Shown here one piece after another: positions 156-25,471 of a stretch of DNA of 64,000 bases. The DNA is taken from the NCBI GenBank assembly GCA_040755005.1, contig JBFMBV010000001.1:5692-69691 (forward strand). The letters run 5' to 3'. The notes under the pieces were generated by a model. It was not told where the DNA came from. It saw only the letters and a list, made by a program, of their open reading frames with translations, and searched no databases. Source of the stretch: Bacillota bacterium (lineage in GTDB: Bacteria; Bacillota; Sulfobacillia; JBFMBV01). Numbering within the stretch: the stretch's first letter is position 1; every line of letters starts with the position of its first letter. The position numbers and the translations under genes are program-made.

Positions 156-1805
156 TCAGGTGACCATCGGCAAGTCGAGCCCATGCCGTTTGGTCGCGAC
201 CAAGGCCTCGGGGTACCCGGCGTCGGCATGCCGCATCACACCGGTGCCAGGGTCTGTGGTCAGCACCCGTTCGAGTCTGCGGGCGGCAGCCTCGGTGCCG
301 TCCGCCACGACTACCATGCCCGCGTGCAAGGAGTAGCCGATGCCCACGCCGCCGCCGTGGTGGACCGATACCCACGAGGCGCCGGCCGCGCAGTTCACCA
401 GCGCGTTGAGGATGGGCCAGTCCCCGATGGCGTCGCTGCCGTCCCGCATACCTTCTGTCTCCCGGTAGGGGGAGGCTACGGACCCGGCATCGAGATGGTC
501 ACGGCCGATGACGATAGGGGCTGATACCTGACCGGTCCTCACCAGCTCATTGAAGAGCAACCCGACCTTGGCCCTGTCCCCATACCCCAACCAGCAGATC
601 CGGGCCGGCAGGCCCTGGAACTTGATGCGTTCCCGGGCCATGCGCAGCCAGCGCTTGAGGCCCGCATCGGCCGGGAACTCGCGCAACAGCACCTCGTCGG
701 TGCGATAGATGTCCTCAGGGTCGCCCGACAGGGCCACCCAGCGGAAGGGCCCTTTGCCTTCGCAGAACAGGGGCCGGATGTACGCCGGCACGAACCCCGG
801 ATAGTCGAAGGCCCTGGCGCAGCCCCCCAACTGGGCCTGCTGCCTCAGATTATTGCCGTAATCAAAGACCACCGAACCTTGGTCCATGAACCCAACCATC
901 GCCTCGACCTGCCGGGCCATGCTCGCGCGGGCGAGTTCCACATAGCGGCCGGGGTCCGACCGGCGCAGGGCGGCCGCGTCTGCCAGGCTGAGGCCAGCCG
1001 GTACGTAGCCGTTGAGCGGGTCGTGGGCCGAGGTCTGGTCCGTGACCACAGCGGGCACGACCCCCTTAGCCAGGATGGCCGGGTGCGTGTCGGCCGCGTT
1101 GCCCAGCAGGGCGATGGAGAGGGGGCGCCCCTCAGCCTGGGCCGCCCTGGCCCTGGCGAGGGCCGCGTCGAGATCGTCTGCGGCCTCGTCGCAGTAGCCC
1201 GAGGCGAGGCGCCGCTGGATCCGGCCTGGGTCGACCTCCACGGCGATGATGACGGCTTCGTTCATGGTCGCCGCTAGGGGCTGGGCCCCGCCCATCCCGC
1301 CAAGGCCCCCCGTGAGCACCAGCCGCCCGCGCAGGCTCCCGCCGAAATGCCGGCGGGCTACTTCGGCCAGGGTCTCGTAGGTCCCCTGGATGATGCCCTG
1401 CGTGCCGATGTAGATCCAGCTGCCTGCCGTCATCTGGCCGTACATGGTCAGGCCCATGTCTTCCAGTTCCCAGAACTTCTCCAGGGTGGCCCAATGGGGG
1501 ACCAAGAGCCCGTTTGCCAGCAGGACTCGCGGCGCGTCAGGATGGGTACGGAACACCCCTACAGGTTTGCCCGACTGCACCAGCAGGGTCTCGTCGGCGC
1601 CCAGACGCCGCAGGGCAGCGATCATAGCCTCGTAGCATTCCCAGTTGCGGGCGGCCTTGCCCGTCCCGCCGTAGACGATGAGGTCATCAGGCCGCTCGGC
1701 CACTTCCTGATCCAGGTTGTTCATCAGCATGCGGAGGGCCGCTTCCTGCTGCCAGCCAGCGCATGTCAGCTCAGGACCGCGGGGTGCTCGGATGTGTCGA
1801 ACCAT
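156..1805 (-). CDS. hutU: urocanate hydratase
   Basis: 549 aa; N-terminus [21 protein letters not shown] and [10 protein letters not shown] are urocanase hallmarks; AGGAGGAGG RBS before ATG at 1805. Confidence 0.9.
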
Positions 1806-1825
1806 GCCGTCCTCCTCCTCACTAT

Positions 1826-3325
1826 CTATGCCTCGCTTACGCCTGTCATGTCCCGTACCAGGGTAGCCACCCGGCTGATGTCGGTGTGAAGTTCCCTGTC
1901 TCCGTCCAGGGGCGGGATGACGGCGCGTACGGCCGCATGGAGCCGGCGTCCGGCAGGGCTGAGTCTTGATACGCCGTCCCTCAGGTCAATGGCTTGAGCA
2001 GCGCAGATGAGTTCGATGGCCAGCACCTGCCTAGTATGGTCCAGGATGGTCCTGGCCTTTCTGGCTGCAATGGTCCCCATGCTCACGTGGTCTTCCTGGT
2101 TCGCCGATGACGGGATCGAGTCCACACTGGCGGGGGAGGCCAGGAGTTTGTTCTCCGATACCAGCGCCGCAGCGGTATACTGGGCCAGCATCAGGCCCGA
2201 GTGCAGGCCGCTGTTCCGCGTCAGGAACGCAGGCAGGCCGTCATTCAAGGCCGGGTTCAGCAGGCGTTCGGTGCGCCGCTCGCTGATGCTGGCCAGTTCG
2301 GCCAAGGCTATGCCCGCCAGGTCCATGGCGATGGCGACGGGTTGGCCGTGGAAGTTGCCCCCTGACAACACCTCTTCGCCGAACAAGAGGGGATTGTCCG
2401 TCGCCGAATTGGCCTCGGTCCGCAGGACGCCAGCGGCATAGGCTAGGGCGTCCCGGCAGGCCCCGTGAACCTGGGGGATGCAGCGCAGGGCATAGGCATC
2501 CTGGACGCGGGCCTCGCCGGCCCGCGTGGTAAGCCTGCTGCCGGCAAGGTGCGCCCTCAGGTTCCTGGCGCTCTCCACCTGCCCAGGATGAGGCCGGGCC
2601 GAGTGAATCCGCTCGTCGAAGGCGTCGGGGATCCCCCGCAGGACCTCCGTAGTCAGGGCGGCCACCGCATCGGCGAGCCCGGCGAGTCTCAAGCCCTGGG
2701 CCACAGCCAGGGCCCCGATGCCCGTCATGGCTTGGGTGCCGTTGATCAGGGCCAGGCCTTCCTTGGCCTGCAGGCGGATGGGGAGTAGTGCGGCTCTGGC
2801 TAAGGCCTCGCCCCCGTCGCAGACGGTGCCACTGACGGCGGCCCGCCCGCGGCCGATGAGGACCAAGGCGATATGCGCCAGCGGGGCAAGGTCGCCGCTG
2901 GCGCCCAAAGACCCCTGGCTGGGGACGACGGGATGTACCCCGGCGTTGAGCAGATCAAGGAGGAGTCCGATAACCTCAGGGCGCACCCCCGAGTGCCCTC
3001 TGGCCAGGGCGTTGGCCCTCAGCAGGATGACAGCCCGGACCTCTGGTTCGGGCAGGGGGTCGCCGACACCCGCGGCGTGGCTCCTGACTAGGTTCACTTG
3101 CAGTTCCTCGGCGGCCGCCGGTGGAACGGCCACATCCGCCAGCCGGCCGAAACCTGTGGTCACGCCGTAGATCGGCCTGTCTCCCGCCACGAGCCTGTCA
3201 ACCACCTGACGGGTGGCGGCGACCCTCGCCCGGGCGGATGGGCACAAGGCCACCCGTTGTCCTCGGGCCACACGTTCGATGTCGGTGAGGGACAGGGAGA
3301 TGCCGTCAATGCGTAACTCAGTCAT
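1826..3325 (-). CDS. hutH: histidine ammonia-lyase
   Basis: [14 protein letters not shown] (MIO-forming ASG motif); track ORF trimmed to [12 protein letters not shown] start at 3325; 20 nt upstream of hutU. Confidence 0.9.
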
Positions 3326-3330
3326 CGGGC

Positions 3331-3888
3331 TCAGTCCTTCAAGGAGAAGCCGGAGCCCCCGAGGGGCTGGCCCTGCCTCCAGTACTGACCGGCGATGTAG
3401 GCCAGAGCCTCCAGTTTGGCGGAGTCCGGCCGTCCGTTGGCGCCAAGCACCGACTCCTCGGCATGGACGGCCACGACCTCGCCCAGGAAAAGGGTATGGC
3501 TGCCCAGGGGGATGGCCTGGCGCAGGCGGCACTCCACGTTCACCGGGCACTCGGCCACCAACGGCGAGCTGATGCGCGTCGCGGGATAGGCGGTCAGCCC
3601 GGCGCGAGCGAACTTGTCCTCATCCCTGCCCGAGAGGTTGCCGCACAGGTCCACAGCGCGGGCCATGGCGGCGGTCGGCAGGTTCACGGCGAAGTCCCCG
3701 GCCGCCTCGATGAGCCCGTGAGAGTAACGGGTGGGGCGGACGCCGATACTGAGTACGGGCGGGTCGGAACAAACCACGCCCACCCAGGCCAGGGTGATGA
3801 GGTTGGGCCTGGGTTCACCGGCTACGCTGATCAGGGCAGCCGGTACTGGGTACAGGGTGGGGGCGGGTTGCAGGAGCCGTTTCGTCAT
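3331..3888 (-). CDS. flavin reductase-like (FMN-binding split barrel) protein
   Basis: PVPAALISVAGEPRPNLITLAWVGVV and FAVNL motifs typical of the flavin reductase domain; start trimmed to MTKRLL; stop 5 nt before hutH start. Confidence 0.55.
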   Translation of the reverse strand: MTKRLLQPAPTLYPVPAALISVAGEPRPNLITLAWVGVVCSDPPVLSIGVRPTRYSHGLIEAAGDFAVNLPTAAMARAVDLCGNLSGRDEDKFARAGLTAYPATRISSPLVAECPVNVECRLRQAIPLGSHTLFLGEVVAVHAEESVLGANGRPDSAKLEALAYIAGQYWRQGQPLGGSGFSLKD

Positions 3889-3956
3889 GGGAAGCACTCC
3901 CTTCGTGCGGCCACCGGGCCGCCACCCACCAGGATACTGGGGTACGGGGGCAGGCG

Positions 3957-5225
3957 TTACCTGGGATTGATGACGGCCAGGGCGGGGGATGAGCCTGCCA
4001 GGTGGGTGCGCAGCCGCTGGTTGACCTGAGCCTGATTCGCAGCGGCGAGGGCCGTAGGATAGTCGAAGAAGTCGATGCCCCGCAGGGCCCGATCGAGGAT
4101 CTCCCAAGTCAGTCCGGCTAGATCGTCCAGGGAGAGGACGACTTCGCCCCGTAGCTTGTTGCGCACGTCCTCCAGCAGGCCTGGGTCGATCCCGTCCGCG
4201 CTCAGTTCGCTGAGCCTGGCCCTAATCCTCTCCGCCACGCCCTGGGGGGTGTCCGACCGCCCTGACACCGCCGTCCAGCCGAAGCCCCGCTCTACGATGG
4301 AGGTAGCCCCGAAACTGGCATCCACCAGGCCCGACTCGTACAGCTCCTCATACAGTGGGGAGAGACGCCCGAACACCGCTTCGCCGAGGATGGCGTCCAG
4401 GGTCTCCCGGCTCAGCAGATCGCCGGGCCCGCTGGCGGGGGCGGCATCCTTGAAGCCCAGATGGAACAGCGGCTGAGCCACCGACATGCCCCGGGCGTGG
4501 TGGGTCTGGGCGTTCCCCGCGGGCTCGTCCGGCAGCAACCTCCGGGGAGTCCCCGGGGCCGGTCTTACCCGGGCCGCGACCTGTTGATAGACAGCCTCCG
4601 GGTCAATGTCCCCAGAAGCCAGCAACAGCATGTTGCCAGGACGGTAGAATGTCTCGTAGCACAGCTTGAGCTGGTCGACGGTGATCGCTGCGACGGATGC
4701 TGCCGTGCCGGCGATCTCCAGGCGCACTGGATGCCGGTGGTACATCGCGCCCAGCAGATCGTAGTACCCGCGCTGCCTGGGATCATCCTCCCCCATTTTG
4801 ATCTCCTGGATGATGATGTCCCGCTCGCGCTCCACCCCTGCTTGACTGAACCTGGGCGTCTGCACAAACTCCAGCAACAGGTCGAGGCACGGTTCGAAGG
4901 ATCCGGCGGTCGTGAAATAGTAGGCGGTCCCGGTATGCCAGGTGGCGGCGTTATCCATGGCGCCGAGGGCGGCGAACCTGTCGCTGACCGGCCCGTCCGG
5001 GGTCTCAAACAGCTTGTGCTCCAGGAAGTGGGCAATGCCATCAGGCACGCGCACCGTGCGGCCGTCGGGGGTCACGAACTCGTTGTCCACTGACCCGTAG
5101 GCCACGGCGACAGCGGCTGAGCAGCGCTGGGCCCCCCTGCGGGGCACGACGATCACCGGCAGCCTCGCCGGGGTCACGCCGCGCCAAAGCTCGACGCCCA
5201 GTCCGGGATGGGCCGTGGCTCTCAC
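3957..5225 (-). CDS. M16 family zinc peptidase (active subunit, HxxEH)
   Basis: HFLEHKLFE inverted zinc-binding motif; start set at GTG 5225 overlapping the upstream TGA (GTGA). Confidence 0.8.
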   Translation of the reverse strand: MRATAHPGLGVELWRGVTPARLPVIVVPRRGAQRCSAAVAVAYGSVDNEFVTPDGRTVRVPDGIAHFLEHKLFETPDGPVSDRFAALGAMDNAATWHTGTAYYFTTAGSFEPCLDLLLEFVQTPRFSQAGVERERDIIIQEIKMGEDDPRQRGYYDLLGAMYHRHPVRLEIAGTAASVAAITVDQLKLCYETFYRPGNMLLLASGDIDPEAVYQQVAARVRPAPGTPRRLLPDEPAGNAQTHHARGMSVAQPLFHLGFKDAAPASGPGDLLSRETLDAILGEAVFGRLSPLYEELYESGLVDASFGATSIVERGFGWTAVSGRSDTPQGVAERIRARLSELSADGIDPGLLEDVRNKLRGEVVLSLDDLAGLTWEILDRALRGIDFFDYPTALAAANQAQVNQRLRTHLAGSSPALAVINPR

Positions 5226-6502
5226 GCCTCGCCCTCCCCCAGCGGACACAGGGCGTAACGGGTCACCATCTCCACCTGCCTGGCCACCGCCGTGACCGCC
5301 TCGACGGTGACTGCGTTGAGCGCGCTGAGCTCCCGGTCCAGATCGGGTGCGAAGCCGCACCGGGACCCCTCGAAACCATGGTCGAGGACGCCGTGGGCGT
5401 CATCTTCCAGCATGCGCCTGACGCTGAACAGCGACTCCCGAGTGCTGTCCATCTCCTCCCGGGAGATGCGGCCCCGCCGCATGTCCTCCAGCTGCTCGCC
5501 GATGAGAGCCGTGGCCTGCTCCTGGCGGCACGAGTCGATCCCCGCCTCGATCAGCAGCACGCCGGCGGTGCTGTGGAGGACTGACCGGGCGTAGTAGGCC
5601 AGCCCCGCGGCTTCCCGGACGTTGCGGAACAGCTTGGAATGGGCGAAGCCACCGAGGATGCCGTTGTAGAACAGCAGCGCGGCCCACTGGGCGCGCCCGG
5701 GGTTGATGCCCGTGAGGCCTCCCATCACGAGTTTGGCTTGCTGTACATCGTCGCTGTCGCGGCCGTCGCCGGCGCCCGCGGTTGCGCTCAGTGGCTGCTG
5801 TAAAGGCGGTGACTGCCCCGGGTACAACCTCAATGTGCTGTCGAGCAGCTCGAGGAACAGCCCTGGCTCGACGGGCCCGCTCACATGGAGCTCGGCAGGC
5901 CAGCCCCCAACCATCTCCCGGTAGGCCCTGGTCAGCCGGCCCGCATCCACTCCCTGCAGATCCTGGAGCCTGCCCAAACGGTGCACAGCGTAGGCCCTGC
6001 CGGGGAACATGGCCTCCAGGCACCGTTGCCTGGCCAAGGCCAGCTTGTCATTGCGCAACGCGTTGATCTGCCGGGCCAGGAAGTCCCGCTCCGAGTCGAC
6101 CCAGTCCTGGCGCAGGCTTCCGTCCTGGAGGGCAGGATCCAGGATCAGTCCGGACCACAGCTTGAGGACTTTGGTCAGGTACTCCCTGCCTTCACCGATC
6201 CTGGCGGGATCCGGTACATCGAGGCCGAAGACCACCACCTGGCGCTCGCCAACCTTGGCCACATCAGCCCCGAACCCGGCCCCGTACAAGTGAGCCAAGG
6301 CCCTGGCCAGCAGGCGTTGCCCTGGGCACTGAGCCGTGCCGCGCTTGAGCACGCGCGGGATGAGGGCGACAGCGGCCGCCTCCGCTAGCTCCAGCGAACG
6401 GTGGAAGTACAGCCTGGCTACGATGGCCGTGCGGTTGCGCCTTGGCCACACGCGGGCACGCAGGCCGGACGAGAGGGCCGTCTCGACAGCGGACTGGGCC
6501 AA
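5222..6502 (-). CDS. M16 peptidase-like protein (no HxxEH; partner subunit)
   Basis: 426 aa with M16 C-terminal-like architecture; TTG start at 6502 with GGGGAGGTAGGAGC RBS; coupled to the downstream M16 gene. Confidence 0.7.
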   Translation of the reverse strand: MAQSAVETALSSGLRARVWPRRNRTAIVARLYFHRSLELAEAAAVALIPRVLKRGTAQCPGQRLLARALAHLYGAGFGADVAKVGERQVVVFGLDVPDPARIGEGREYLTKVLKLWSGLILDPALQDGSLRQDWVDSERDFLARQINALRNDKLALARQRCLEAMFPGRAYAVHRLGRLQDLQGVDAGRLTRAYREMVGGWPAELHVSGPVEPGLFLELLDSTLRLYPGQSPPLQQPLSATAGAGDGRDSDDVQQAKLVMGGLTGINPGRAQWAALLFYNGILGGFAHSKLFRNVREAAGLAYYARSVLHSTAGVLLIEAGIDSCRQEQATALIGEQLEDMRRGRISREEMDSTRESLFSVRRMLEDDAHGVLDHGFEGSRCGFAPDLDRELSALNAVTVEAVTAVARQVEMVTRYALCPLGEGEA

Positions 6503-6790
6503 GCTCCTACCTCCCCGGCGCCACGCAGGGCATCGCCCTGGGGCCTGATCGCTGACAGTATGCCCAGCACAGCTGCGGGTAAGCAGGCCGCGCGGCAGCG
6601 TCCTAAGTGGCTATTCACCGCGCTGGCGGGCGGTTCCTCCCAGCGAGACCGGTGGCGTCATCGACGGCGCCATGGAGCCAGTGGTCCTTCTCATTAGGCA
6701 TGCGGCAAGGAAAATGTTATACTACTCTCGTACGACACTCGTCTTCGGGAAGTAAGGATGACTGGCGGACAGGCCGGGAGGGAAGGAAGT

Positions 6791-8653
6791 TTGTGCGGGT
6801 TTGTCGGAGTATGGCATAAGAGCGGCGGAACCCGTTCCCGTACTCATTTTACCTCTATGACCAATACCCTGGCGCACCGGGGTCCCGATGACGAGCGTTA
6901 CGCTCACCTGGAGCATGTGGACCTGGGGTTTAGAAGGTTGAAGATCATCGACTTATCCGGCGGGTATCAGCCCATGTATAACGAAGACCAGAGCCTCTGC
7001 CTGGTCTTCAATGGGGAAATCTACAACTACCGGGAGCTGAGGGACGGGTTAAGACAACGCGGACACATTTTCGCCTCGAATGCTGACAGCGAGGTCATCC
7101 TGCACCTGTATGAGGAGTACGGTGAGGTCTGTGTCAACCGGCTGCGAGGCATGTTTGCCTTCTGCATATACGATCGTGCGGAGAACCGGCTGTTTGGCGC
7201 CCGGGATCGCTTTGGCATCAAACCGCTCTATTACCTCGAAACTGCCAACTCATTTGCCCTTGCTTCGGAGGCCAAGGCCCTGCTCGATGTTCCGGGGTAC
7301 AGCCCCATGGTTAACGAAGCGGCGATCCCTCACTATTTGACCTTTGAGTATGTTCCGGAGCCGGAAACAATGTTCAAGGGCATCTACAAGATTCCGCCCG
7401 GACATTCCTTTGTGTACAGCAGCGGGAAGCTGACCCTCTCGCGTTACTGGGAGGTCAACTTCTCACCCGTAGACAAACCCTTTGCCGAAGTTTTGGAAGA
7501 AACGCGACAGGTCATGCGCGAAGCGGTAAAACTGCATACCCAAAGCGATGTTCCCTTGGGGGCGTTCCTATCGGGAGGAATCGACTCAACCATAATCGTG
7601 GCGCTGCTCAGGGAACTTGGGCATGTGTCCACCTTTAGTGTAGGCTATGAGGAATCGGCTTACAGTGAGCTTTCCGAAGCGGCAGAAACCGCGCGCTATC
7701 TGGAGACCGAGCATGAAGAGTATGTGATTGAGCCGGATGAGTTCTGGGCACACCTCCCCCGGCTGATCCATCATTTCGACGAACCGGTGGCGGATCCGGC
7801 AGCGATCTCGCTCTACTTCGTAGCGCGGATGGCCAGAAAGAAGATAACCGTAACCCTGTCCGGAGAAGGCGCGGACGAGCTCTTCGGAGGATACGCGATT
7901 TACATGGAACCGCGCGCGCTCCAGCCCCTGAGTATGTTACCCCCGCCCATGTTGCAGGCCCTGGGGGCGGGCTCCCAACTCCTGCCGGGGTTCATTCCGG
8001 GGAAGAACTACCTGCGCCGGGCCTCTACTCCGTTAAGAAACCGCTTTTACGGAAACGCTCATATCTTCAACGAAGATGAGAAGCGGGCTCTGCTGAAGGA
8101 CAACCAGTTTGTGCCGGCAACGGCCGTAACCGGCCCCCTGTATGACAGAGCCGCCGCCTACGACGACGTGACCAAAATGCAGTATATCGACCTGCATACA
8201 TGGATGGTAGGGGATATCTTGGTCAAAGCGGACAAGATGACCATGGCCAATTCACTGGAGTTGAGGGTTCCCTTCCTGGATCACCACGTCTTTGAGTTTG
8301 CGTCCACTATACCTACGAAATACAAGATCCGCAAAGGCCTCACCAAGTACGTGCTGCGGCAGGCCTTTGCCGGTATTGTTCCCCCAGCTGCCGTTTCCCG
8401 TCCCAAGCGGGGTTTCCCGGTGCCCACCCGTGTGTGGCTCAGGGGACCGATGGGGAAGAAAGCGGAGGAACTCCTGATGGATCCATCGCTGGGGCAGTTC
8501 TTTAGCCCCGCGCCGGTGCGAAAGTACCTGAGCGAACATCGGCTGGGGAAAGCAGATCACAGCCGGAAGATCTGGAGCCTGGTCATTTTCACCCTGTGGT
8601 GGGAGTGTTTCTTCCCCGGTTCACTAGCATCATTGAGCGAAGCCTCCGGTTAA
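6791..8653 (+). CDS. asnB: asparagine synthetase, glutamine-hydrolysing
   Basis: TTG-Cys start (M-CGFVG N-terminal nucleophile) after GGGAGGGAAGGA RBS; SGGIDS PP-loop; about 55% GC versus about 68% flanks. Confidence 0.85.
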   Translation: MCGFVGVWHKSGGTRSRTHFTSMTNTLAHRGPDDERYAHLEHVDLGFRRLKIIDLSGGYQPMYNEDQSLCLVFNGEIYNYRELRDGLRQRGHIFASNADSEVILHLYEEYGEVCVNRLRGMFAFCIYDRAENRLFGARDRFGIKPLYYLETANSFALASEAKALLDVPGYSPMVNEAAIPHYLTFEYVPEPETMFKGIYKIPPGHSFVYSSGKLTLSRYWEVNFSPVDKPFAEVLEETRQVMREAVKLHTQSDVPLGAFLSGGIDSTIIVALLRELGHVSTFSVGYEESAYSELSEAAETARYLETEHEEYVIEPDEFWAHLPRLIHHFDEPVADPAAISLYFVARMARKKITVTLSGEGADELFGGYAIYMEPRALQPLSMLPPPMLQALGAGSQLLPGFIPGKNYLRRASTPLRNRFYGNAHIFNEDEKRALLKDNQFVPATAVTGPLYDRAAAYDDVTKMQYIDLHTWMVGDILVKADKMTMANSLELRVPFLDHHVFEFASTIPTKYKIRKGLTKYVLRQAFAGIVPPAAVSRPKRGFPVPTRVWLRGPMGKKAEELLMDPSLGQFFSPAPVRKYLSEHRLGKADHSRKIWSLVIFTLWWECFFPGSLASLSEASG

Positions 8654-9461
8654 CCCGTGGGTGAACCCCCTTGCGGCGGCCCAATCCCGCCGCAAGAAAG
8701 CTCTGGGCGTGATCACAGCACGAAGCGTCCACTCCACGGTGATGACCGCCCACGCCCAAGGCAGGCCAAGACCCAAAACCCTGACCACCAGGTAGAAGAG
8801 GGGTACCCTCAGCACCCACGCCGCCAGGGCCGTGATGCGCATGGGGGTACGCGTGTCCCCGGCCCCCCTGAGGGCGCCGTTGAAGGCCTCGGTGATGGCG
8901 ATGCCTGGTTGGGTAAGGGCCGCCACGCGCAAACAGGGAACCGGCCAGGAGCACCACGGTGTCCTGGCCGGTGAACAGCCGTAGCAGGGCCGCGGGAACC
9001 GCGAGGAACACCAGGGCGATGGCGCCCATGGCCACCAGGCGCATGTAGCCCGTCCCAGGGATGATGACCGCCTGGCCCATGGCTGCCAGCCGGAAAACGT
9101 GCGGGGCCACGGCCCGCAGGCCGATCGTGAGCAGGACCCCGAGGGCGACCGCCCCACCCACGCCCGCGCCGGCGATAACACGGCAGGCGTCCTTGTCGCC
9201 ACGGCCAGTGGCTTGGCTCACCAACACTTGCGTGCCCATGCTGACCGCAAGCGTGCAGACCCAGATCACCGTCCAGACAATCTGAGCCCCCAGGCTGACC
9301 GCGCTAAGCGCTTCGGCGCCCAGCCGTGCTACCATCGCTGTGTCGACCACCCAGACCAGCATGTGCAGGGACATCTCGATGATGGCAAGCCAGGCCAGAG
9401 TGAGGAAGAGCAGGCGGCGCTCGGCCGGGGAAGCAGGCAGTGGTACGGCGTCCGGGCTCAT
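8630..9461 (-). pseudogene. MATE efflux transporter remnant: first half only, with an internal frameshift
   Basis: Frame A (9461 down to about 8945) has the MATE N-terminus; frame B (about 8926 to 8630) has the AITEAFNGALRGAGDTRTPM MATE motif; switch near tttgcgcgtggcggccctt; ends where TM7 should begin, overlapping the asnB 3' end. Confidence 0.55.
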
Positions 9462-10837
9462 GGCCCCACCTTGGCCCTGACCAGTGCCTCCAAGGCGGGC
9501 TTCGTGTTGAGGGAGGGGTCTTCCAGGACCTCCTCCAGGAGCTCGCGCAGCAGGCGCCCGACCTCGGGCCCGGGGGGCAGCCCAGTGAGGGTCATCACGT
9601 CATGGCCGTCAATGGCCAGGTCCTTCAGGCCGAAGGCGGCGTCCTGGGCCAGCACCTGTTCAATGCGGCGGAGCAGCCGTGCGGTTCCCTTGGAGATAGG
9701 TCCAGGCTTCTTGCCGGAGGCCTTCCTGTCCGCCTCGCGCAACCGCAGCAGGTCGTCCATATGCTCGAGCCCTACCCGCTTGATCAAGCGGCGGATGGCC
9801 GGGTCTTTCATCTGCCGTTGGTAGTGGAGGGCCATATGGTGTTTGATCAGGTGGGACACGCCGTCCACGGTCTGGTTGTCGAACTTGAGCCGTTTGAGGA
9901 TACGTCTGGCCAGGCCGGCCCCGACGTGCTCATGATCAAAGAAGTGCCGTGCGCCGTCGGCGGACACCGACAGGCACCGCGGCTTCGCGACATCGTGCAA
10001 GAGGGCGGCCAGGCGCAGCCTGAGGACTGCTGGGACGGCGTCGAGCGCTACCAGGCTGTGTTCCCAGACGTTGTAGGCGTGATGCACATTTTGCTCCATG
10101 CCCACGCCCTCGAGCAGCTCGGGCAGGAACTGCGCCAGCAACCCGCTTTCCCGAAGCCGTTCCATGGCCCAGGCAGGCCGGGCAGTCAGGAGCATGTTGG
10201 TGAGTTCATCGCGGATGCGTTCGGCGCTGATGTTCCCGAGCAGATGAGCCAGGGGCGGGATAGCCGCCCACGTTGCAGCGTCCAGCTCCATGCCGAGTTG
10301 GGCGGCGAAGCGTACCGCCCTGAGCATGCGCAAGGCGTCCTCATGGAAGCGCTCGGCCGCGTCGCCCACGGCCCGCACGACCTTAAGCCGCAGGTCGGTC
10401 AACCCTCCGACTACGTCGATTAAGCGCCCCCGTCTGTCCAGGGCGAGCGAGTTGATGGTGAAGTCCCTGCGTTTGAGGTCTTCAGCCACATCGTCCACGA
10501 AGCGCACCTGATCCGGCCGGCGGTGATCGCTGTACCCGCGTTCCACCCGGTAGGTGGTGACCTGGACGGGGCGCAGGCTGAGCACAGTGACAGTGCCGTG
10601 CTTGATCCCGGTGGGCACGGATCTCGGGAACAGGCGCCGGATCTGCTCGGGCAAAGCGCTGGTGGCCAGATCCCAATCAGCGGGGGTCCTGCCCAGCACT
10701 AGGTCGCGCACCCCTCCGCCGACGGCGTACGCACTGTGGCCCTGCCGCTCCAGCTCTCCCATCACGTCGCGGACGTAAGCGGGGATGAAGCGGAAAGGCA
10801 GCAACCGCAAGGCAAGCAGCCTGGGAGTAAAGGACAC
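9458..10837 (-). CDS. cca: CCA-adding tRNA nucleotidyltransferase
   Basis: GHSAYAVGGGVRDLVLG, RDFTINSLA and HD-domain HDVAKP motifs; stop overlaps the MATE remnant start (ATGA). Confidence 0.85.
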   Translation of the reverse strand: MSFTPRLLALRLLPFRFIPAYVRDVMGELERQGHSAYAVGGGVRDLVLGRTPADWDLATSALPEQIRRLFPRSVPTGIKHGTVTVLSLRPVQVTTYRVERGYSDHRRPDQVRFVDDVAEDLKRRDFTINSLALDRRGRLIDVVGGLTDLRLKVVRAVGDAAERFHEDALRMLRAVRFAAQLGMELDAATWAAIPPLAHLLGNISAERIRDELTNMLLTARPAWAMERLRESGLLAQFLPELLEGVGMEQNVHHAYNVWEHSLVALDAVPAVLRLRLAALLHDVAKPRCLSVSADGARHFFDHEHVGAGLARRILKRLKFDNQTVDGVSHLIKHHMALHYQRQMKDPAIRRLIKRVGLEHMDDLLRLREADRKASGKKPGPISKGTARLLRRIEQVLAQDAAFGLKDLAIDGHDVMTLTGLPPGPEVGRLLRELLEEVLEDPSLNTKPALEALVRAKVGP

Positions 10838-10841
10838 GGGG

Positions 10842-12428
10842 TCACCTCCGGGGCTGGCGCTGATGGCGGTCGAGGGTCGGTACTACCAGGTGGAGGGCCC
10901 GGTCAAAGTGGGCGGCCGACACCGTCATATTACCGACCTCGCTGGGATCCAAGCGTGCGTCATAGCCCTCCGGCGCCCCCTCGAACCGCTCGCGGATGCA
11001 CTCCAGACCAGCCTCCCGGCACAGGGCGGCCAGATCGGCGCCGACAAAGCGGTCGGTGGCCTTGGCCAGGGCAGGCAAGTTGACATCAGCGGCCAGGGGC
11101 ATCGCCCTGGCATGTATCTTCAGGATAGCCAGCCTCTGCTCCTCACCTGGGGGACTGATCTCCAGCAAGAAGTCGAGGCGGCCCGGACGCTTTACGGCTG
11201 GGTCCACGTTGTCCACCCGGTTGGTGGTACCGATGACCACGACCTGTCCCCTGTCCTCCAGGCCATCCATGCAACTGAGCAGTTGGCTGACGGTCACCGC
11301 CTCGAAGTTGTGCGTGACGTTGGCCCGGTCAGGGGCGATGGAATCCAGTTCATCGAAGAGCACTACCGACGGGGCAGTCTCCTTAGCCTCGGCGAAGAGG
11401 GCCCTAAGGTTCGCCTCGGACTGCCCGTGCCACTGGGAGATGATCTCCGGGCCATTGACCAGGATGAAGTTGGCCTGGCACTCGCTGGCGAGGGCCTTGG
11501 CCAGCAGGGTCTTGCCGGTGCCCGGCGGCCCGTACAGGAGGGCCCCCTTGTGAGCCCGGATGCCCAACCGCTCGAACATCTCGGGGTACTTGAGGGGCAG
11601 TTCGATGGCTTCCCGCAGCCTGCGGAGCTCCCCATCAAGTCCCCCCACATCCGCATACCGCACCGTAGGGACATCCCGCTGTCCGTCCGGGATCCTCGCC
11701 GCGCCGGCCGACGGCGTAGCCGACACGGGGGTCGCCTCGCGTTGGCGCTTCTCCACGCCCACTACCTGGTAGCGGCCGTTATGCCAACCGTGCTTGTACA
11801 CCCAGTTGCCGTCAAGGCGGGGGTCGATACGCTCCGGCAGGTTGACTAGGATGTCTTCCAGCCGGTTCCTGTCCAGCAGCGGGCAGTGCCACGCCAAGCT
11901 TCGCTTGAGATAGTCGCCGACCGCTTCCCTGAGCTTGGCCTTATCGACGATGAAGACCTTCTCCTTGCTGATCCGCCCATACTGGAACCAGCCCAGGTGG
12001 TTCCCCTCGGATACGGGCAGGCGCCGGCAGGGGAACAGCTGCTTGACGGCGCCGACCCCGGTAGCGTGGATGCCCCGTCCGGTGCAGTAGCCCTGGGGAT
12101 CCGCGGAACAAGCCCCCCGCTCGTAGCAGTCCAGGAAGGCATATAGGCGGCGGAGATTGACCGACTCGCCTCCTACGGTCAGTCTGAGCGAGCGCCAGTT
12201 CGCCGCCACGCTGAGTAGGGCTCTCAGCCTGGGCAGGGCGTCGGCGGCGTAGGATACGGTGTACGTTGTTCCGTTAGGGCCGTGACGCATGGCGAAGGAA
12301 GGCTCGCTCTCAGCGACGCTGAGCGCCTCGCCGAAGTGCGCCGACGATGACCGTTGGAACTCGACCTTGATCTCCAAGGGTCCGCCTCCCATCGGGCGTG
12401 GATTATCCCCAGGGCCGTTGAGCTCCAT
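10842..12428 (-). CDS. AAA+ ATPase (Cdc48/FtsH-type single AAA module) with a roughly 280-aa uncharacterised Cys-containing N-terminal domain
   Basis: Walker A GPPGTGKT, Walker B VVLFDELD, SRH TNRVDNVDPAVKRPGRLD; N-domain has no motif I recognise; stop 4 nt from cca start. Confidence 0.75.
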   Translation of the reverse strand: MELNGPGDNPRPMGGGPLEIKVEFQRSSSAHFGEALSVAESEPSFAMRHGPNGTTYTVSYAADALPRLRALLSVAANWRSLRLTVGGESVNLRRLYAFLDCYERGACSADPQGYCTGRGIHATGVGAVKQLFPCRRLPVSEGNHLGWFQYGRISKEKVFIVDKAKLREAVGDYLKRSLAWHCPLLDRNRLEDILVNLPERIDPRLDGNWVYKHGWHNGRYQVVGVEKRQREATPVSATPSAGAARIPDGQRDVPTVRYADVGGLDGELRRLREAIELPLKYPEMFERLGIRAHKGALLYGPPGTGKTLLAKALASECQANFILVNGPEIISQWHGQSEANLRALFAEAKETAPSVVLFDELDSIAPDRANVTHNFEAVTVSQLLSCMDGLEDRGQVVVIGTTNRVDNVDPAVKRPGRLDFLLEISPPGEEQRLAILKIHARAMPLAADVNLPALAKATDRFVGADLAALCREAGLECIRERFEGAPEGYDARLDPSEVGNMTVSAAHFDRALHLVVPTLDRHQRQPRR

Positions 12429-12493
12429 TCCGTTGACCTAAACCTGGTGCATCTTCTCCGCCTGCAGCGACGAATCCTTTGTGCGGCTAGGTA

Positions 12494-12522
12494 TTGACCC
12501 TTCGGGCAGGCCATGCTATGAT
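12494..12522 (+). promoter_or_regulatory. sigma-A promoter of the proBAC leader
   Basis: TTGACC (12494-12499), 17-nt spacer, TATGAT (12517-12522). Confidence 0.6.
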
Positions 12523-12529
12523 TGGTGCT

Positions 12530-12815
12530 AATTAGCGCACCAGCGATGACGAGGAGCAGTAAGCAGCCCTGGGCGGCCCACAGAGAGCGGGGGTAAGGTG
12601 CAAGCCCGCGGCCGCAGGTAGCCGAACCCACCTCTGAGCCGCCGGCGACGAGTCGGCCGGGCAGGCTCCTGCCGTTACCAGCGGAGCAGGTGTAAGGGTC
12701 GCCTGCGGCCCCGCACCGCGGAGTGGATGGCGATGGCCATCAAATTGGGTGGTACCACGGAAGGCAGTCTTAGCCCTTTCGTCCCATGCGGACGAGAGGG
12801 CTCTGTTATTTGGGG
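12530..12815 (+). promoter_or_regulatory. T-box leader (tRNA-sensing riboswitch, presumably tRNA-Pro) upstream of proB
   Basis: GA (K-turn) motif agcgATGAcgaggAG; T-box sequence AAATTGGGTGGTACCACGGAAGG at 12742-12764; terminator GCCCTTTCGTCC/GGACGAGAGGGC followed by TTATTT just before the proB RBS. Confidence 0.7.
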
Positions 12816-12823
12816 GTGTCGTG

Positions 12824-13588
12824 ATGGGGTCGACGATCGTAGTCAAGATCGGCTCCAGTTCGCTGGCTGATGCGGGGGGCCTGTGCCGGGCAGCGGTGGA
12901 GACGCTCACCCGCGAGATTGCGGCGCTGCGCCGCGCAGGCCACCAGGTAGTGCTCGTCACCTCCGGGGCGGTGGCAGCCGGCCAGCGGGCGATGGGCGAG
13001 ACCACCAGCGACGAAGGCAGGCGGGCCGCCGCTGCGGCCGGCCAGGCTGTCCTCATGGCTGGGTACGTCACGGCCTGTACTGAGTTGGGCTTCACCGCCG
13101 CCCAGTTGCTGATCACCTCGGCAGACCTGCGGGAAGGCACACGCTTGTCAGGGGTGCTGGCCAAGCTGCTGGAGGCTGGCGTCCTCCCAGTGATCAACGA
13201 GGATGACGCCCTGGCAGCAAAGGTCATGCGCAACAACGACCTCGTGGCCGCGAGGGTTGCCATGCTGCTGGGCGCTTCGCTGCTGGTGCTGCTGACCGAT
13301 GCCGATGGCCTCCACACTGACGACCCGCGCCGCGACCCCACGGCCCCCGTCGTCTCCCGGGTCACCCGGGTGACCGGTCGCCTCCTGGCCACAGCCGGCG
13401 GGCCGGGGCAGCGCGGCGCGGGGGGGATGCGCGCCAAGCTGAAGGCCGCGGCGTTAGCAGCCTCCGCCGGGGTAGGCGTGGTGATCGCCCGGGCCGGCGC
13501 GCCGGATATCCTGTGCCGGGCCGTGCAGGAGCGGGAAGCTGCCGGCACCTTCGTCATTCCCCGTCGGGCAGGAGGTGGGTATTCGTGA
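12824..13588 (+). CDS. proB: glutamate 5-kinase (short form, no PUA domain)
   Basis: MGSTIVVKIGSSSL N-terminus; start trimmed from the track ORF to the ATG at 12824 downstream of the terminator. Confidence 0.85.
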   Translation: MGSTIVVKIGSSSLADAGGLCRAAVETLTREIAALRRAGHQVVLVTSGAVAAGQRAMGETTSDEGRRAAAAAGQAVLMAGYVTACTELGFTAAQLLITSADLREGTRLSGVLAKLLEAGVLPVINEDDALAAKVMRNNDLVAARVAMLLGASLLVLLTDADGLHTDDPRRDPTAPVVSRVTRVTGRLLATAGGPGQRGAGGMRAKLKAAALAASAGVGVVIARAGAPDILCRAVQEREAAGTFVIPRRAGGGYS

Positions 13589-14853
13589 CAGTGCTTGAGC
13601 AGAGCGCCCGCAGGGCCCGGGAGGCGGCAGGCCTCGTCGCCGATGCCGGGGCCGGCGGCAGGACGCGGGCACTGGAGCTGATGGCAACTGCCGTGACCGG
13701 TGCAGCCGGCACGGTGCTGGCCGCTAATGCCCTCGACATGGCCGCAGCCAGGGCGGCAGGCCACCCCGGCGCCTTCCTGGACAGGCTCCGCCTGGATGAG
13801 GGGCGCCTGCAGGCCATGGTGGCCACCCTGCGCGACCTCGCCGCCAGCCCAGACCCCCTCGCCCAGCCGGGCCTAGCCTGGACCCGACCCAACGGCCTGG
13901 TCGTCGAGCGTCGGCCGGTCCCCCTGGGTGTGCTGGCCGTGATCTTCGAAAGCCGACCCAACGTCGCGGTGGACGCCGCCGCGCTGGCCGTCCGCAGTGG
14001 CAACGCCGTACTGCTGAAGGCGGGCTCCGAGGCCTCCCGCACAGTGAACCGCCTGGTCGAGGTGCTCTCCACCGGGCTGGCCCGGGCGGGCCTGCCGCGC
14101 CAGGCCGTGCAGGTAGTCCCGGGTGACCGCGACGCCGCTCTGGGCTTGGCGCGGCTGAGTGGCTTGGTCGACCTGCTGGTCCCTCGGGGCGGCGGCCCCC
14201 TCCTGCGGGCAGTGCGGGCGATGGCCACAGTGCCCCTGGTGGAGACCGGGCCCGGCAACTGCCACGTCTATGTTGACGCCGCAGCCGACATGGCGATGGC
14301 CTTGGACATCATCGTCGATGCCAAGACCCAGCGGCCCGGGGTCTGCAACGCGGCCGAGACTTTACTGGTACACCGTGCGATCGCGGCCAGGTTCTTGCCT
14401 CAGGCCACCGCGGCCCTCTCCAGCCGGGGTGTCACCCTCCGCTGCTGCGCGGCTGCACTGAAGCAGATGCCGGGGGCCCAACTTGCCACAGCCGAAGACT
14501 GGGATGCGGAATACCTGGATCTCGTCCTGGCCGTGCGGGTTGTCCCTGATATGGCTGGGGCTCTCAGACACATCAGGGCCCACAGTACAGGCCATTCCGA
14601 GGCTATCGTCACAGAGGACCAGGCTGCCGCCGCAGCTTTCCTGTCTGCTGTCGATGCCGCTGCGGTCTATCACAACGCCTCCACGCGGTTCACCGACGGC
14701 GGGGAGTTCGGCTTCGGCGGGGAGCTGGGCATCGCCACCGGGCGTGTCCACGCTCGGGGTCCGCTCGGCCCTGAGCAGCTGGTCACTTACAAGTACGTGG
14801 TCGTGGGCAGCGGACAGACCCGCGGAGAAAGGTGGTCCAGCCGTGGGCGGTAA
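13585..14853 (+). CDS. proA: gamma-glutamyl phosphate reductase
   Basis: VLAVIFESRPNV and GPGNCHVYVD motifs; GTG start overlaps the proB TGA (GTGA). Confidence 0.9.
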   Translation: MTVLEQSARRAREAAGLVADAGAGGRTRALELMATAVTGAAGTVLAANALDMAAARAAGHPGAFLDRLRLDEGRLQAMVATLRDLAASPDPLAQPGLAWTRPNGLVVERRPVPLGVLAVIFESRPNVAVDAAALAVRSGNAVLLKAGSEASRTVNRLVEVLSTGLARAGLPRQAVQVVPGDRDAALGLARLSGLVDLLVPRGGGPLLRAVRAMATVPLVETGPGNCHVYVDAAADMAMALDIIVDAKTQRPGVCNAAETLLVHRAIAARFLPQATAALSSRGVTLRCCAAALKQMPGAQLATAEDWDAEYLDLVLAVRVVPDMAGALRHIRAHSTGHSEAIVTEDQAAAAAFLSAVDAAAVYHNASTRFTDGGEFGFGGELGIATGRVHARGPLGPEQLVTYKYVVVGSGQTRGERWSSRGR

Positions 14854-15839: not shown

Positions 15840-16330
15840 TCAATCGTCGTCGGAGCCCTCGATGAGGTCGTCGAAATCCTCCAGCGTGGGGTCGGCCTTG
15901 ATGGCAGTCTCGATCTTAGCCAGGGCTTCTGCTTCGGTCAGCCCCGCCTCAATGAGGTCAGCCATCGCTGCGGTGATCGTGGTCAGTTCCTCTAGGGTTG
16001 GGTCTGCTTCCATGGCTGTCTTGAGCATTGCCAGCGCGGCTTCGGACTTGACACCAGCCTCCAGCAGGTCCACCATGGCTGCCGTAAAGGTAGTGATCTC
16101 TTCCAAGAGGAGTTCCCTGTCCGTACCTGCGGCCAGTTGCGCCTCCACCAGGGCCAGCACAGCCATGATGTCCTCGGCCGTTGCGCCGACGTCGTGTAGG
16201 TCAATCGTAGCCGCGACGATGGTGCTCAGCTCCTCGAGTTCGGGATCTGTCACCAAGGTGCCCTTCAGGATAGCCAACGCAGCTTCCTCAGTCATCCCGG
16301 CCTCGAGCATGTCCAGTAGCCCCGCCGCGA
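15840..16330 (-). repeat. in-frame degenerate tandem repeats (about 111 nt, about 37 aa) encoding the C-terminal domain of the anti-sigma protein
   Basis: Four protein units ending DPELEELS, (diverged), DPTLEELT and DPTLEDFD, each carrying a xEAALAxLK core; the antisense frame gives a Ser-rich shadow ORF. Confidence 0.5.
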
Positions 16331-17087
16331 TCGTGTCGAACTCGTCGCTGAACAGCTCAGGGTCGATGTCCAGCTCCGCTTGCAGTTCCAGCACCTTCAT
16401 GGCCAGCTCGGAACCAGCCTCTTCGACCAGATCAACATAGTCATCGGGCAAGATGCCAGCCTTACGTGCAGACTCAGCCAGCTCACCGGTGACTTCGACG
16501 CTCACGACCTTGACCGACAAGCCCTGCTCCTTGAGGTAGCCGTCCAGGGTCCCGCGCACTGTCTCCGTCAAGGCCGTGAGCGCTTTCTGGGGCAGCTTGT
16601 CCTCAATCGGGCTCAAGGCAATGACGATCCGACGCTGAGGATCTAACAGCCCGGCCTTGTGCAGCTCCTCCGCGATGAGGCGCAGCGCCTCATCTACCTT
16701 CTTGCCCTCGAGTTTCAGTCCTGCCAATAGGGCCTCGCCCTGAGCGTCCAGACCTTCCGCGTCCATGATCCTGTCTTTTCCGCTTACGGTCAGTCCGATC
16801 GCAGGGTTGACCTGCAAGGCCAGACTAGCTACGGCCCGAGGGGTGAAGAAAGCCATGTACCCTCCAACCACCAGAGCCACCACGGCAACCGCGGCAACGA
16901 GCTTCCCAACTTTCACTATCATCCCTCCGACAGTCGCTTTGTGGGTTGGGCGATGAACTTTGGCTTTGGCACAGTGCCCACAGGCAAGCAGGGTTCTTCT
17001 CAAGCGCTGCTGGTGTGCCGGCATGTGCACTTCGGGAAGCTGAAGATCCTCCAGCATTGCCTCCAGCTCTGTCCTAACCAACTTCAT
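15840..17087 (-). CDS. putative membrane anti-sigma factor with one TM and an acidic helical-repeat extracytoplasmic domain
   Basis: Immediately downstream of the ECF sigma gene; 55-aa cytoplasmic N-terminus, TM GGMIVKVGKLVAAVAVVALVVGGYMAFF, repeat domain; start ATG at 17087 (TTG at 17096 also possible). Confidence 0.6.
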   Translation of the reverse strand: MKLVRTELEAMLEDLQLPEVHMPAHQQRLRRTLLACGHCAKAKVHRPTHKATVGGMIVKVGKLVAAVAVVALVVGGYMAFFTPRAVASLALQVNPAIGLTVSGKDRIMDAEGLDAQGEALLAGLKLEGKKVDEALRLIAEELHKAGLLDPQRRIVIALSPIEDKLPQKALTALTETVRGTLDGYLKEQGLSVKVVSVEVTGELAESARKAGILPDDYVDLVEEAGSELAMKVLELQAELDIDPELFSDEFDTIAAGLLDMLEAGMTEEAALAILKGTLVTDPELEELSTIVAATIDLHDVGATAEDIMAVLALVEAQLAAGTDRELLLEEITTFTAAMVDLLEAGVKSEAALAMLKTAMEADPTLEELTTITAAMADLIEAGLTEAEALAKIETAIKADPTLEDFDDLIEGSDDD

Positions 17088-17142
17088 ATCGATCAACCCT
17101 CTGTTCCATTAAACTTCGCTCTGGGAAAAAGGTTGCAGCCTG

Positions 17143-17721: not shown

Positions 17722-17955
17722 CGCCGTTGCTCCTAACCTCTGTGCGTAACTCATCCCTGCAAGACGCTGCGAGGCCACTGATTCGTTACGCGAGCGGCGA
17801 TTTCCTCTGCCTCTCTCAAGCTTTCCGCATCGTTCGAGCTGCGCTAAGGCTCGAGTGGTCGACGGCGCCGATGCCGGGCGTACAACCCGGCGGGCAGCCC
17901 GTGGGGGCTGCCCGCTGCAAGTGTACAATCATCGCTGACCAGGCACCCTTACCTT

Positions 17956-19179: not shown

Positions 19180-19270
19180 GGCTCTACCTCCTGACGCTCC
19201 CCGAGGTCAGACTCGGACGCAGTCAACGGTTACGACGTCACGACAGCCTTATGGTTCCCCACCTCAGGGA

Positions 19271-25377: not shown

Positions 25378-25387
25378 GGATCTGTGT

Positions 25388-25459: not shown

Positions 25460-25471
25460 AAAATTAACTTG

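What the first reader, a model, noticed from the sequence alone, without database searches (positions are those of the whole stretch)
6690..9461. Low-GC asnB island ends where a MATE efflux gene is truncated and frameshifted
asnB and its promoter region are about 55% GC, against about 68% elsewhere. The convergent MATE gene ends inside the asnB 3' end, exactly where TM7 should begin, and it also carries a +/-1 frameshift near 8930-8950: the frame with the MATE N-terminus and the frame with the GDTRTPM motif are different. I found no integrase or transposase. This looks like a horizontally acquired asnB cassette whose insertion destroyed a transporter gene.
Basis: seen in the sequence. Interest (0 to 1): 0.55.

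Follow-up and report, generated by a model that had tools for sequence, protein, structure and literature searches.

The report
Foreign asnB cassette beside decayed MATE gene
A 2-kb low-GC asparagine synthetase cassette replaced a neighbouring anion-symporter gene, and the adjacent MATE efflux gene was broken later by a separate internal deletion and two frameshifts, which is ordinary bacterial genome turnover.

Summary
The sequence features are mostly real. The causal story is wrong in its key step.

**Composition.** Window 6649 to about 8657 is 56.4% GC, against 65.5 ± 2.3% for equal-sized windows (z = -3.9). It holds one intact asnB gene, whose true start is the TTG at 6791.

**Three related contigs give three states of this locus:**
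- L001 (about 90% nt identity) has CCA-MATE-DASS symporter-M16 on one strand and no asnB.
- L024/L028 (about 97% identity) has the same asnB cassette in place of the DASS gene, next to an intact 456-aa MATE.
- The window has asnB plus a damaged MATE.

So the cassette replaced the DASS symporter and only rewrote the last few MATE codons. It did not truncate MATE.

**MATE lesions in the window.** Both termini are present. The gene carries:
- an in-frame 561-nt deletion (residues 142-328, TM4-TM8) between 11-nt direct repeats GCCTGGTGGCC (junction 9030-9040);
- a +1 insertion at 8943-8944;
- a +1 insertion at 8666-8670.

All single-base indels against the 97% relative fall in this gene or in intergenic DNA.

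**Origin.** The closest asnB homologues outside this clade (70-72% aa) are Dethiobacter-like, from loci of 48-52% GC. I found no integrase, tRNA or flanking repeats.

This is ordinary and of low interest.

The parts
6649..8657 (+). Low-GC asnB cassette (island). It occupies the place of the DASS symporter gene and terminator of the relative L001 (L001 3028-4471). The right edge can only be placed between 8658 and 8676.
   Evidence: blastn of L001 against the window gives homology at 11121-9021, 9040-8658 and 6644-6477 only. GC is 0.564, z = -3.9.
6695..6723 (+). Promoter-like site inside the cassette (TAGGCA-17-TATACT with an upstream TG), about 68 nt before the asnB start. This is a consensus match only.
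   Evidence: 1 site found against 0.9 expected from shuffles, so not significant on its own.
6791..8653 (+). asnB, glutamine-hydrolysing asparagine synthetase, 620 aa and intact. The start is TTG, so the protein begins M-C-G-F with the catalytic Cys at position 2. The 631-aa ORF from the ATG at 6758 is an over-extension.
   Evidence: Pfam GATase_7 plus Asn_synthase, both full length. TIGR01536 equivalog at 535 bits against a cut-off of 267. Sequence read. Alignment A3 shows Cys2 and S-G-G-x-D-S conserved. The gene call in L024 is 620 aa.
8630..9461 (-). MATE efflux transporter pseudogene. It runs from the ATG at 9461 (ATGA overlap with the CCA gene stop) to the frame-B stop at 8630. It retains TM1-3 and TM9-12.
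   Evidence: Pfam MatE hits in two different frames. Alignment to intact orthologues P0001 and L024.
9030..9040 (-). Deletion junction: a single copy of the 11-nt repeat GCCTGGTGGCC. Intact orthologues have two copies 561 nt apart, and the 561 nt (187 codons, residues 142-328, TM4-TM8) between them are missing here.
   Evidence: TM mapping by hydropathy. The intact protein aligns over residues 20-437 to the solved MATE 6fv6.
8943..8944 (-). +1 insertion (CC in place of C on the minus strand), which shifts the frame within TM9/TM10.
   Evidence: Absent from L024, L028 and L001.
8666..8670 (-). Second +1 insertion in a G run (minus strand). It changes the last few codons and moves the stop from the GGTTAACC site to 8630.
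9458..10837 (-). CCA-adding tRNA nucleotidyltransferase gene, native and directly upstream of MATE on the same strand.
   Evidence: Pfam. Conserved in L001, L024 and L028.
5222..6648 (-). Native M16-family peptidase gene (5222-6502) and its upstream intergenic DNA (6503-6648). This is the left flank of the cassette and is conserved in L001.

Best explanation
The locus records two separate events in a high-GC Bacillota lineage.

**Event 1 (inferred order).** The ancestral arrangement was CCA enzyme, MATE, DASS anion symporter and two M16 peptidases, all on one strand with overlapping stop and start codons. The DASS gene and its terminator (1.44 kb) were exchanged for a 2.0-kb foreign cassette in the opposite orientation. 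The cassette carries about 140 nt of 5' leader and a complete glutamine-dependent asparagine synthetase gene (asnB), and probably came from a lower-GC, Dethiobacter-like Bacillota donor. The right-hand junction lies in the last few codons of MATE. MATE received a new short tail and a new stop codon that overlaps the asnB stop, and it stayed intact.

**Event 2 (shown by comparison with a 97%-identical relative).** In the window's lineage MATE was then inactivated. Slippage or illegitimate recombination between two 11-nt direct repeats removed 561 nt (TM4-TM8), and two single-base insertions shifted the frame. asnB is intact and presumably functional. MATE is a recent pseudogene.

The transfer mechanism is not visible in the sequence. 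The absence of mobility genes and repeats fits uptake of DNA followed by illegitimate or homology-facilitated recombination.
For: **Three allelic states**
- L001: CCA-MATE(456 aa)-DASS(464 aa), no asnB, about 90% nt identity.
- L024/L029 and the identical L028 from a second sample: asnB plus an intact 456-aa MATE, about 97% nt identity across window 1368-14347.
- Window: asnB plus a damaged MATE.

**Timing of the cassette**
- asnB divergence between the window and L024 is 2.7%. Flanking native genes diverge by 1.9-3.6%. The cassette therefore predates that split.

**Foreign origin of asnB**
- The cassette is 0.564 GC, z = -3.9.
- The L001 DASS gene is 0.68 GC with GC3 of 0.90, which is native-like.
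- The nearest asnB homologues outside the clade are 70-72% identical, carry names such as Dethiobacter sp., Bacillota and Syntrophomonadaceae, and lie in loci of 48-52% GC where asnB matches its surroundings.

**MATE lesions**
- They were mapped base by base against two intact orthologues.
- Of the six single-base indels between the window and L028 over 13 kb, four are intergenic and two are in MATE. None falls in the other roughly 10 kb of coding sequence.

**asnB is intact**
-.
Against: - **No outgroup.** Nothing keeps this synteny. The Thermaerobacter-like MAGs L002 and L003 have an M24 peptidase after the CCA gene. The metagenome scan found nothing above 48% identity. More distant MATE homologues sit in unrelated contexts. 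The direction DASS to asnB therefore rests on composition, strand and parsimony.
- **Reads not available.** The window comes from a MAG (P0241 = MEW6307435.1), so the three MATE lesions could not be checked against reads.
- **No signal of relaxed selection.** Substitutions polarised with L001 give 7 synonymous and 6 non-synonymous on the window branch, against 4 and 5 on the L024 branch. This fits a very recent inactivation but adds no support.
- **No donor at nucleotide level.** The 5' leader does not align with the upstream regions of the 70%-identical homologues.
Confidence: 0.8

Rival explanations
1. One reading: insertion of the asnB cassette itself truncated MATE at the boundary between the N-lobe and the C-lobe (TM7), removing the C-terminal half.
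For: asnB and the MATE remnant overlap at their 3' ends, and the remnant is only about 275 codons long against about 456 in intact relatives.
Against: The remnant's last 128 codons align with residues 329-456 of the intact orthologues, that is TM9-TM12 and the native C-terminus. L024 and L028 carry the same cassette at the same junction beside an intact 456-aa MATE.
Confidence: 0.02
2. The MATE lesions are artefacts of assembling or binning a metagenome (a chimeric join at the repeat, homopolymer errors), and the organism has an intact MATE.
For: The window derives from a MAG. Both single-base changes lie in short G/C runs. I could not inspect reads. Substitutions show no sign of relaxed selection.
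Against: Three independent lesions fall in one 0.8-kb gene, while no other coding sequence in the 13 kb compared has an indel. By my estimate the chance is about (0.8/11)^2, roughly 0.005, if errors were spread at random over coding DNA. An 11-nt exact repeat is shorter than the usual assembly k-mers, so a collapse there is unlikely (my inference).
Confidence: 0.12
3. Reverse polarity: asnB was at this site first, and the L001 lineage later replaced it with a DASS symporter gene.
For: No syntenic outgroup was found.
Against: The DASS gene has host-like composition (GC3 0.90), sits on the operon strand with a TTGA stop/start overlap to MATE, and has its own GC-rich hairpin terminator. asnB is 9 GC points below the host and lies on the opposite strand. 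asnB would still have had to arrive by transfer, so this scenario needs two events at identical junctions instead of one.
Confidence: 0.08
4. The low GC of asnB is an intrinsic property of the gene (amino-acid composition or expression) and does not indicate foreign origin.
For: Other patches of the window are also below average: 16-18 kb at 0.58-0.60 and 52-53 kb at 0.60. Several other ORFs have GC3 of 0.60-0.70.
Against: In the Dethiobacter-like loci asnB matches its surroundings to within 1-2 GC points. Here it is lower at all three codon positions. The gene is absent from this site in L001.
Confidence: 0.05

Closest known systems
Glutamine-hydrolysing asparagine synthetase, AsnB type (TIGR01536; Pfam GATase_7 + Asn_synthase)
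   Same: Both domains are present at full length. The N-terminal Cys follows the initiator directly. The SGGxDS PP-loop is present. The score is twice the equivalog cut-off.
   Different: Nothing differs structurally apart from a short variable C-terminal tail. From my own knowledge, some Bacillota AsnB homologues amidate peptidoglycan meso-diaminopimelate and do not make asparagine. The physiological role here is not settled by sequence.
MATE family efflux transporters (TIGR00797, Pfam PF01554; solved examples Aq128 6fv6, NorM 3mkt, PfMATE 3vvn, DinF-BH 4lz6)
   Same: The intact orthologue in L024 aligns over residues 20-437 with solved 12-TM MATE proteins and passes TIGR00797. The window copy keeps TM1-3 and TM9-12 at about 89% identity to the intact orthologue P0001.
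   Different: The window copy lacks TM4-TM8 and is frameshifted twice. An odd number of helices is lost, so even the in-frame deletion product could not keep the MATE topology (my inference).
Genomic islet acquired without a mobile element; gene-for-gene replacement by illegitimate or homology-facilitated illegitimate recombination (general knowledge of bacterial transformation and horizontal transfer)
   Same: A single foreign gene has atypical composition. The flanks are conserved. The resident gene is removed exactly. There are no mobility genes, no tRNA site and no flanking repeats.
   Different: The mechanism is inferred from the absence of other signatures. The donor DNA and the recombination intermediates are not observable.
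Pseudogene formation by slipped-strand or microhomology-mediated deletion between short direct repeats
   Same: One copy of an 11-nt exact repeat remains at the junction, and the intact alleles hold both copies 561 nt apart.
   Different: Nothing unusual. By my estimate about one 11-nt repeat is expected by chance in a 1.4-kb gene of this composition. The two copies are not equivalent positions of the two MATE lobes: one is at the start of TM4 and the other at the start of TM9.

Membership tests
AsnB-type asparagine synthetase (TIGR01536) | Whole-protein score above the curated equivalog cut-off | tested here: met
   534.9 bits against a cut-off of 267.1.
AsnB-type asparagine synthetase (TIGR01536) | N-terminal nucleophile Cys directly after the initiator Met (class II / Ntn glutamine amidotransferase) | tested here: met
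   TTG 6791 followed by TGC 6794, with a GGAGGG-rich stretch just upstream. Cys2 is invariant in alignment A3.
AsnB-type asparagine synthetase (TIGR01536) | C-terminal synthetase domain with the ATP pyrophosphatase loop SGGxDS | tested here: met
   Asn_synthase profile matched at positions 2-353 of 354. S261, G263, D265 and S266 are invariant.
AsnB-type asparagine synthetase (TIGR01536) | Catalyses Asp + Gln + ATP to Asn | not testable with these tools
   This needs an enzyme assay or complementation of an asparagine auxotroph.
MATE efflux transporter (PF01554 x2, TIGR00797) | Two MatE repeats forming 12 transmembrane helices in one reading frame | tested here: not met
   The window copy has one partial MatE hit in frame A (profile 2-136) and a fragment in frame B (profile 114-161). 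Residues 142-328 are missing and there are two frameshifts. The orthologue in L024 meets the feature.
Classical integrative genomic island | Atypical base composition relative to the host | tested here: met
   0.564 against 0.655 ± 0.023, z = -3.9.
Classical integrative genomic island | Integrase, recombinase or transposase gene within or beside the island | tested here: not met
   The island holds only asnB. The neighbours are M16 peptidases, the CCA enzyme and an AAA ATPase.
Classical integrative genomic island | Insertion at a tRNA/tmRNA gene with flanking direct repeats | tested here: not met
   The only tRNA genes in the window are at 25.3-25.5 kb. No direct repeats bracket 6649 and 8657.
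DASS sodium-coupled anion symporter (the replaced gene, in L001) | Match to Na_sulph_symp / TIGR00785 | tested here: inconclusive
   Pfam Na_sulph_symp at 148 bits against a gathering score of 27. TIGR00785 at 149.6 bits is below its subfamily cut-off of 198.6. No remnant is left in the window (tblastn).

The most novel reading that the evidence does not exclude
The cassette brought its own promoter and sits tail-to-tail with MATE. Their stop codons overlap and there is no terminator between them. asnB transcription could therefore read antisense through MATE and silence it. A silenced MATE would be dispensable, which would explain its rapid decay. On this reading the insertion killed the transporter indirectly, giving a natural three-step series of operon remodelling after a transfer that involved no mobile element.
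Probability: 0.1. Interest if true: 0.35.

Novelty: new member of a known kind. Interest (0 to 1): 0.15.

Why it matters
It matters mainly for annotation.
- The MATE ORFs at 8589-9461 and 8630-9202 should be called one pseudogene.
- The asnB start should be moved from the ATG at 6758 to the TTG at 6791.
- The strain probably lacks both the MATE exporter and the DASS symporter that close relatives have.

The three related contigs also give a small, clean example of stepwise remodelling of a locus: gene replacement by transfer, then loss of a neighbouring gene by microhomology deletion. The example could be used to date such events within one uncultured Bacillota clade. It opens no new biological question.

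Tried and rejected
- **Outgroups in reference genomes.** The genome-contig scan with the CCA enzyme found its best relatives at 59% identity (a Thermaerobacter sp. MAG and Bacillota ZC4RG37). Those loci are not syntenic: an M24 peptidase follows the CCA gene.
- **Outgroups in metagenomes.** The metagenome-contig scan with the same protein found nothing above 48% identity.
- **Contexts of more distant MATE homologues.** P0002 and P0007 sit in unrelated neighbourhoods.
- **Exact look-ups of the window's own proteins.** The CCA protein and P0241 are not on record, so the source contig could not be retrieved.
- **RNA families.** The Rfam scan of 6300-9700 gave only a chance-level nrdJ match (E = 0.98). 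There is no leader or riboswitch upstream of asnB.
- **Donor leader.** The cassette's 5' leader does not align with the upstream regions of Dethiobacter-like asnB genes.
- **Plasmid and phage collections.** Only weak hits (67-74% identity, at most 19% coverage) to the asnB coding sequence turned up, with no vector candidate.
- **Flanking repeats around the island.** None bracket the junctions. The 19-nt inverted pair at 6290/9203 lies outside the island and is probably chance.
- **Relaxed selection on MATE.** Polarised substitution counts are too few to be informative.
- **Recombination between the two pseudo-symmetric MATE lobes.** I considered this as the cause of the deletion and rejected it. 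The repeat copies lie at the start of TM4 and the start of TM9, which are not equivalent positions.
Full report
**1. The observation**

A 300-nt sliding window shows GC falling from 0.65-0.73 to 0.53-0.62 between about 6600 and 8700, and rising again on the far side. The block finally delimited, 6649-8657, is 0.564 GC. Every other window of equal size in the 64 kb averages 0.655 ± 0.023, with a minimum of 0.589, so z = -3.9. The long ORF at 6758-8653 has GC1/2/3 of 0.59/0.42/0.69. Neighbouring genes are near 0.70/0.50/0.82. The compositional anomaly is real and is the strongest in the window. Milder dips exist at 16-18 kb and 52-53 kb.

**2. What the genes are**

The ORF is a complete AsnB-type asparagine synthetase.
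- Pfam GATase_7 and Asn_synthase both match at full length.
- It scores 535 bits on the TIGR01536 equivalog, against a cut-off of 267.
- The catalytic Cys must follow the initiator. The real start is therefore the TTG at 6791 (TTG-TGC-GGG-TTT = M-C-G-F), preceded by a GGAGGG-rich stretch.
- The same start was called in a relative, giving 620 aa. The alignment with homologues agrees.
- The 631-aa form from the ATG at 6758 is identical to NCBI protein MEW6307435.1, "MAG: Bacillota bacterium". This identifies the window's source and shows that the deposited start is over-extended.

On the minus strand two overlapping ORFs carry MatE matches in different frames. ORF 8589-9461 matches profile positions 2-136. 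ORF 8630-9202 matches profile positions 114-161.

**3. Related loci give three states of the same site**

A search with a frame-corrected MATE translation found P0001. It is 456 aa and 89% identical over the aligned part.

- **L001** is the contig that carries P0001. It reads CCA enzyme, MATE (456 aa), then a 464-aa Na_sulph_symp/DASS symporter, all on one strand. blastn of L001 against the window gives three blocks:
  - L001 1-2101 = window 11121-9021;
  - L001 2643-3027 = window 9040-8658;
  - L001 4472-4629 = window 6644-6477.
  
  These blocks are about 86-90% identical. So L001 3028-4471, the symporter gene and its hairpin terminator, corresponds to the asnB block in the window. L001 2102-2642 has no counterpart in the window.
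- **L024** carries the best asnB homologue, P0121 (99% aa). The same contig was retrieved again as L029. L028, from a second sample, is 100% identical to L024 over 9.9 kb. These contigs are about 97% identical to window 1368-14347. They have the same asnB cassette at the same junctions, next to an intact 456-aa MATE.
- **The window** has asnB plus a damaged MATE.

**4. Anatomy of the MATE lesions**

The three-way nucleotide alignment shows the following.

(a) The intact alleles contain GCCTGGTGGCC twice, 561 nt apart. The window has one copy, at 9030-9040 on the minus strand, and lacks the DNA in between. The loss is 187 codons, in frame, covering residues 142-328.

(b) The window has an extra C at 8943-8944 (CTGGCCGG against CTGGCGG). 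Removing it restores ...VVLLAVPCLRVAALTQPGIAITEAFNGALRGAGDTRTPM..., which is identical to the orthologues.

(c) The window has an extra G in the run at 8666-8670. This changes the last codons and moves the stop to 8630.

Hydropathy of the intact protein, together with its end-to-end alignment over residues 20-437 to solved MATE transporters such as Aq128 6fv6, places the deleted block at TM4-TM8. TM1-3 and TM9-12 remain. The C-terminal end (...RAFLRRDWAA) is present.

Over 13 kb compared with L028, six single-base indels separate the two sequences. Four are intergenic (3939, 6678, 6743, 12699) and two are in MATE. None lies in any other gene. This pattern fits real mutations filtered by selection, with MATE released from it. 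It fits random sequencing error poorly.

Substitutions polarised with L001 are too few to show relaxed constraint: 7 synonymous and 6 non-synonymous on the window branch, against 4 and 5 on the L024 branch. The inactivation is therefore recent.

**5. Anatomy and origin of the cassette**

*Left junction.* The window, L024 and L001 agree up to ...CTCCCAGC(G/C)A(G/A)A, which ends at window 6648. L001 then continues into the symporter's GC-rich hairpin terminator. The window continues into the asnB leader.

*Right junction.* Homology to L001 is clear up to ...TGGGCCGC (window 8676) and fades by 8658. That point is only a few bases beyond the asnB stop at 8651-8653. In L024 the MATE stop and the asnB stop overlap within GGTTAACC. 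The exchange therefore gave MATE a new tail of about 6 codons and left it otherwise whole.

*Contents.* The cassette holds about 140 nt of leader, with one promoter-like site at 6695-6723 (not significant on its own), plus asnB and nothing else.

*No mobility signatures.*
- There is no integrase or transposase nearby.
- There is no tRNA nearby.
- No repeats bracket the junctions.
- There is no Rfam element.
- There is no close plasmid or phage match.

*Evidence for foreign origin.*
- The L001 symporter gene has native composition: GC 0.68 and GC3 0.90.
- The nearest AsnB proteins outside this clade are 70-72% identical. Those that carry names are called Dethiobacter sp., Bacillota or Syntrophomonadaceae.
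- In two such loci asnB is 0.48-0.52 GC, like its surroundings.
- The window's asnB GC3 of 0.69 lies between that of the donors and that of the host.

*Timing.* asnB has diverged 2.7% between the window and L024, similar to the flanking genes at 1.9-3.6%. The cassette was therefore acquired before those two lineages split and after, or apart from, the L001 lineage.

**6. Interpretation**

The best reading has two steps. First, a foreign asnB cassette replaced the DASS symporter gene. Second, MATE decayed independently in the window's lineage through a repeat-mediated deletion and two frameshifts.

Two uncertainties remain:
- The direction of the DASS/asnB exchange lacks an outgroup.
- The MATE lesions could not be checked against reads.

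**7. Comparison with known systems, and verdict**

All components belong to well-known families: AsnB, MATE and DASS. Both processes are textbook genome dynamics: acquisition of a single gene with atypical composition and no mobility gene, and pseudogenisation by deletion between short direct repeats. This instance is undescribed, but it is a new member of known kinds.

Its value is for annotation: one MATE pseudogene, a corrected asnB start, and loss of two transporters relative to sister strains. Interest is low.

The only less ordinary reading not excluded is that convergent transcription from the cassette silenced MATE and so made its loss neutral. I give this about 10%.

Noticed in passing
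window 6758-6793: The deposited annotation of asnB (MEW6307435.1, 631 aa) starts at the ATG at 6758. The conserved catalytic Cys requires the TTG at 6791, giving 620 aa that begin MCGF. In L028 the same gene was called at only 598 aa, from an internal Met.
   Followed up: yes
window 15840-19206 (minus strand): The second lower-GC patch (0.58-0.60 at 16-18 kb) encodes an RsgI-like anti-sigma factor (15840-17108), a sigma-70 family factor with regions 2 and 4 (17143-17928) and a full-length serpin (17956-19206). A bacterial serpin next to a SigI/RsgI-type pair may merit a look.
   Followed up: partly
window 25305-25545 (minus strand): A cluster of three tRNA genes (Glu-TTC, Lys-CTT, Met-CAT). 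It is followed by several ORFs with lower GC3 (25.5-28 kb) that have no Pfam match.
   Followed up: partly
L001 4423-4471: The DASS symporter gene of the relative ends with a GC-rich hairpin (AGGCCGGCCTGGGTCAGGCCGGCCT) followed by TTTCCATTT, a likely intrinsic terminator. It was removed together with the gene in the asnB-carrying lineages.
   Followed up: partly
window 9386-9388 (MATE codon 25): The Pro of the LAWP motif is invariant in all six aligned intact MATE homologues. In the window copy it is Leu (CCT to CTT on the window branch). This is a possible further inactivating change, or a sign of relaxed constraint.
   Followed up: partly
window 10842-12428 (minus strand): A 528-aa protein has a C-terminal AAA+ ATPase module (AAA plus AAA_lid_3) and a roughly 280-aa N-terminal region with no Pfam match. 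It is conserved in L028.
   Followed up: no
window 6290-6308 and 9203-9221: A 19-nt inverted repeat (89% complementary) lies about 350-550 nt outside each end of the asnB/MATE region. It sits inside coding sequence on both sides and is probably chance.
   Followed up: no
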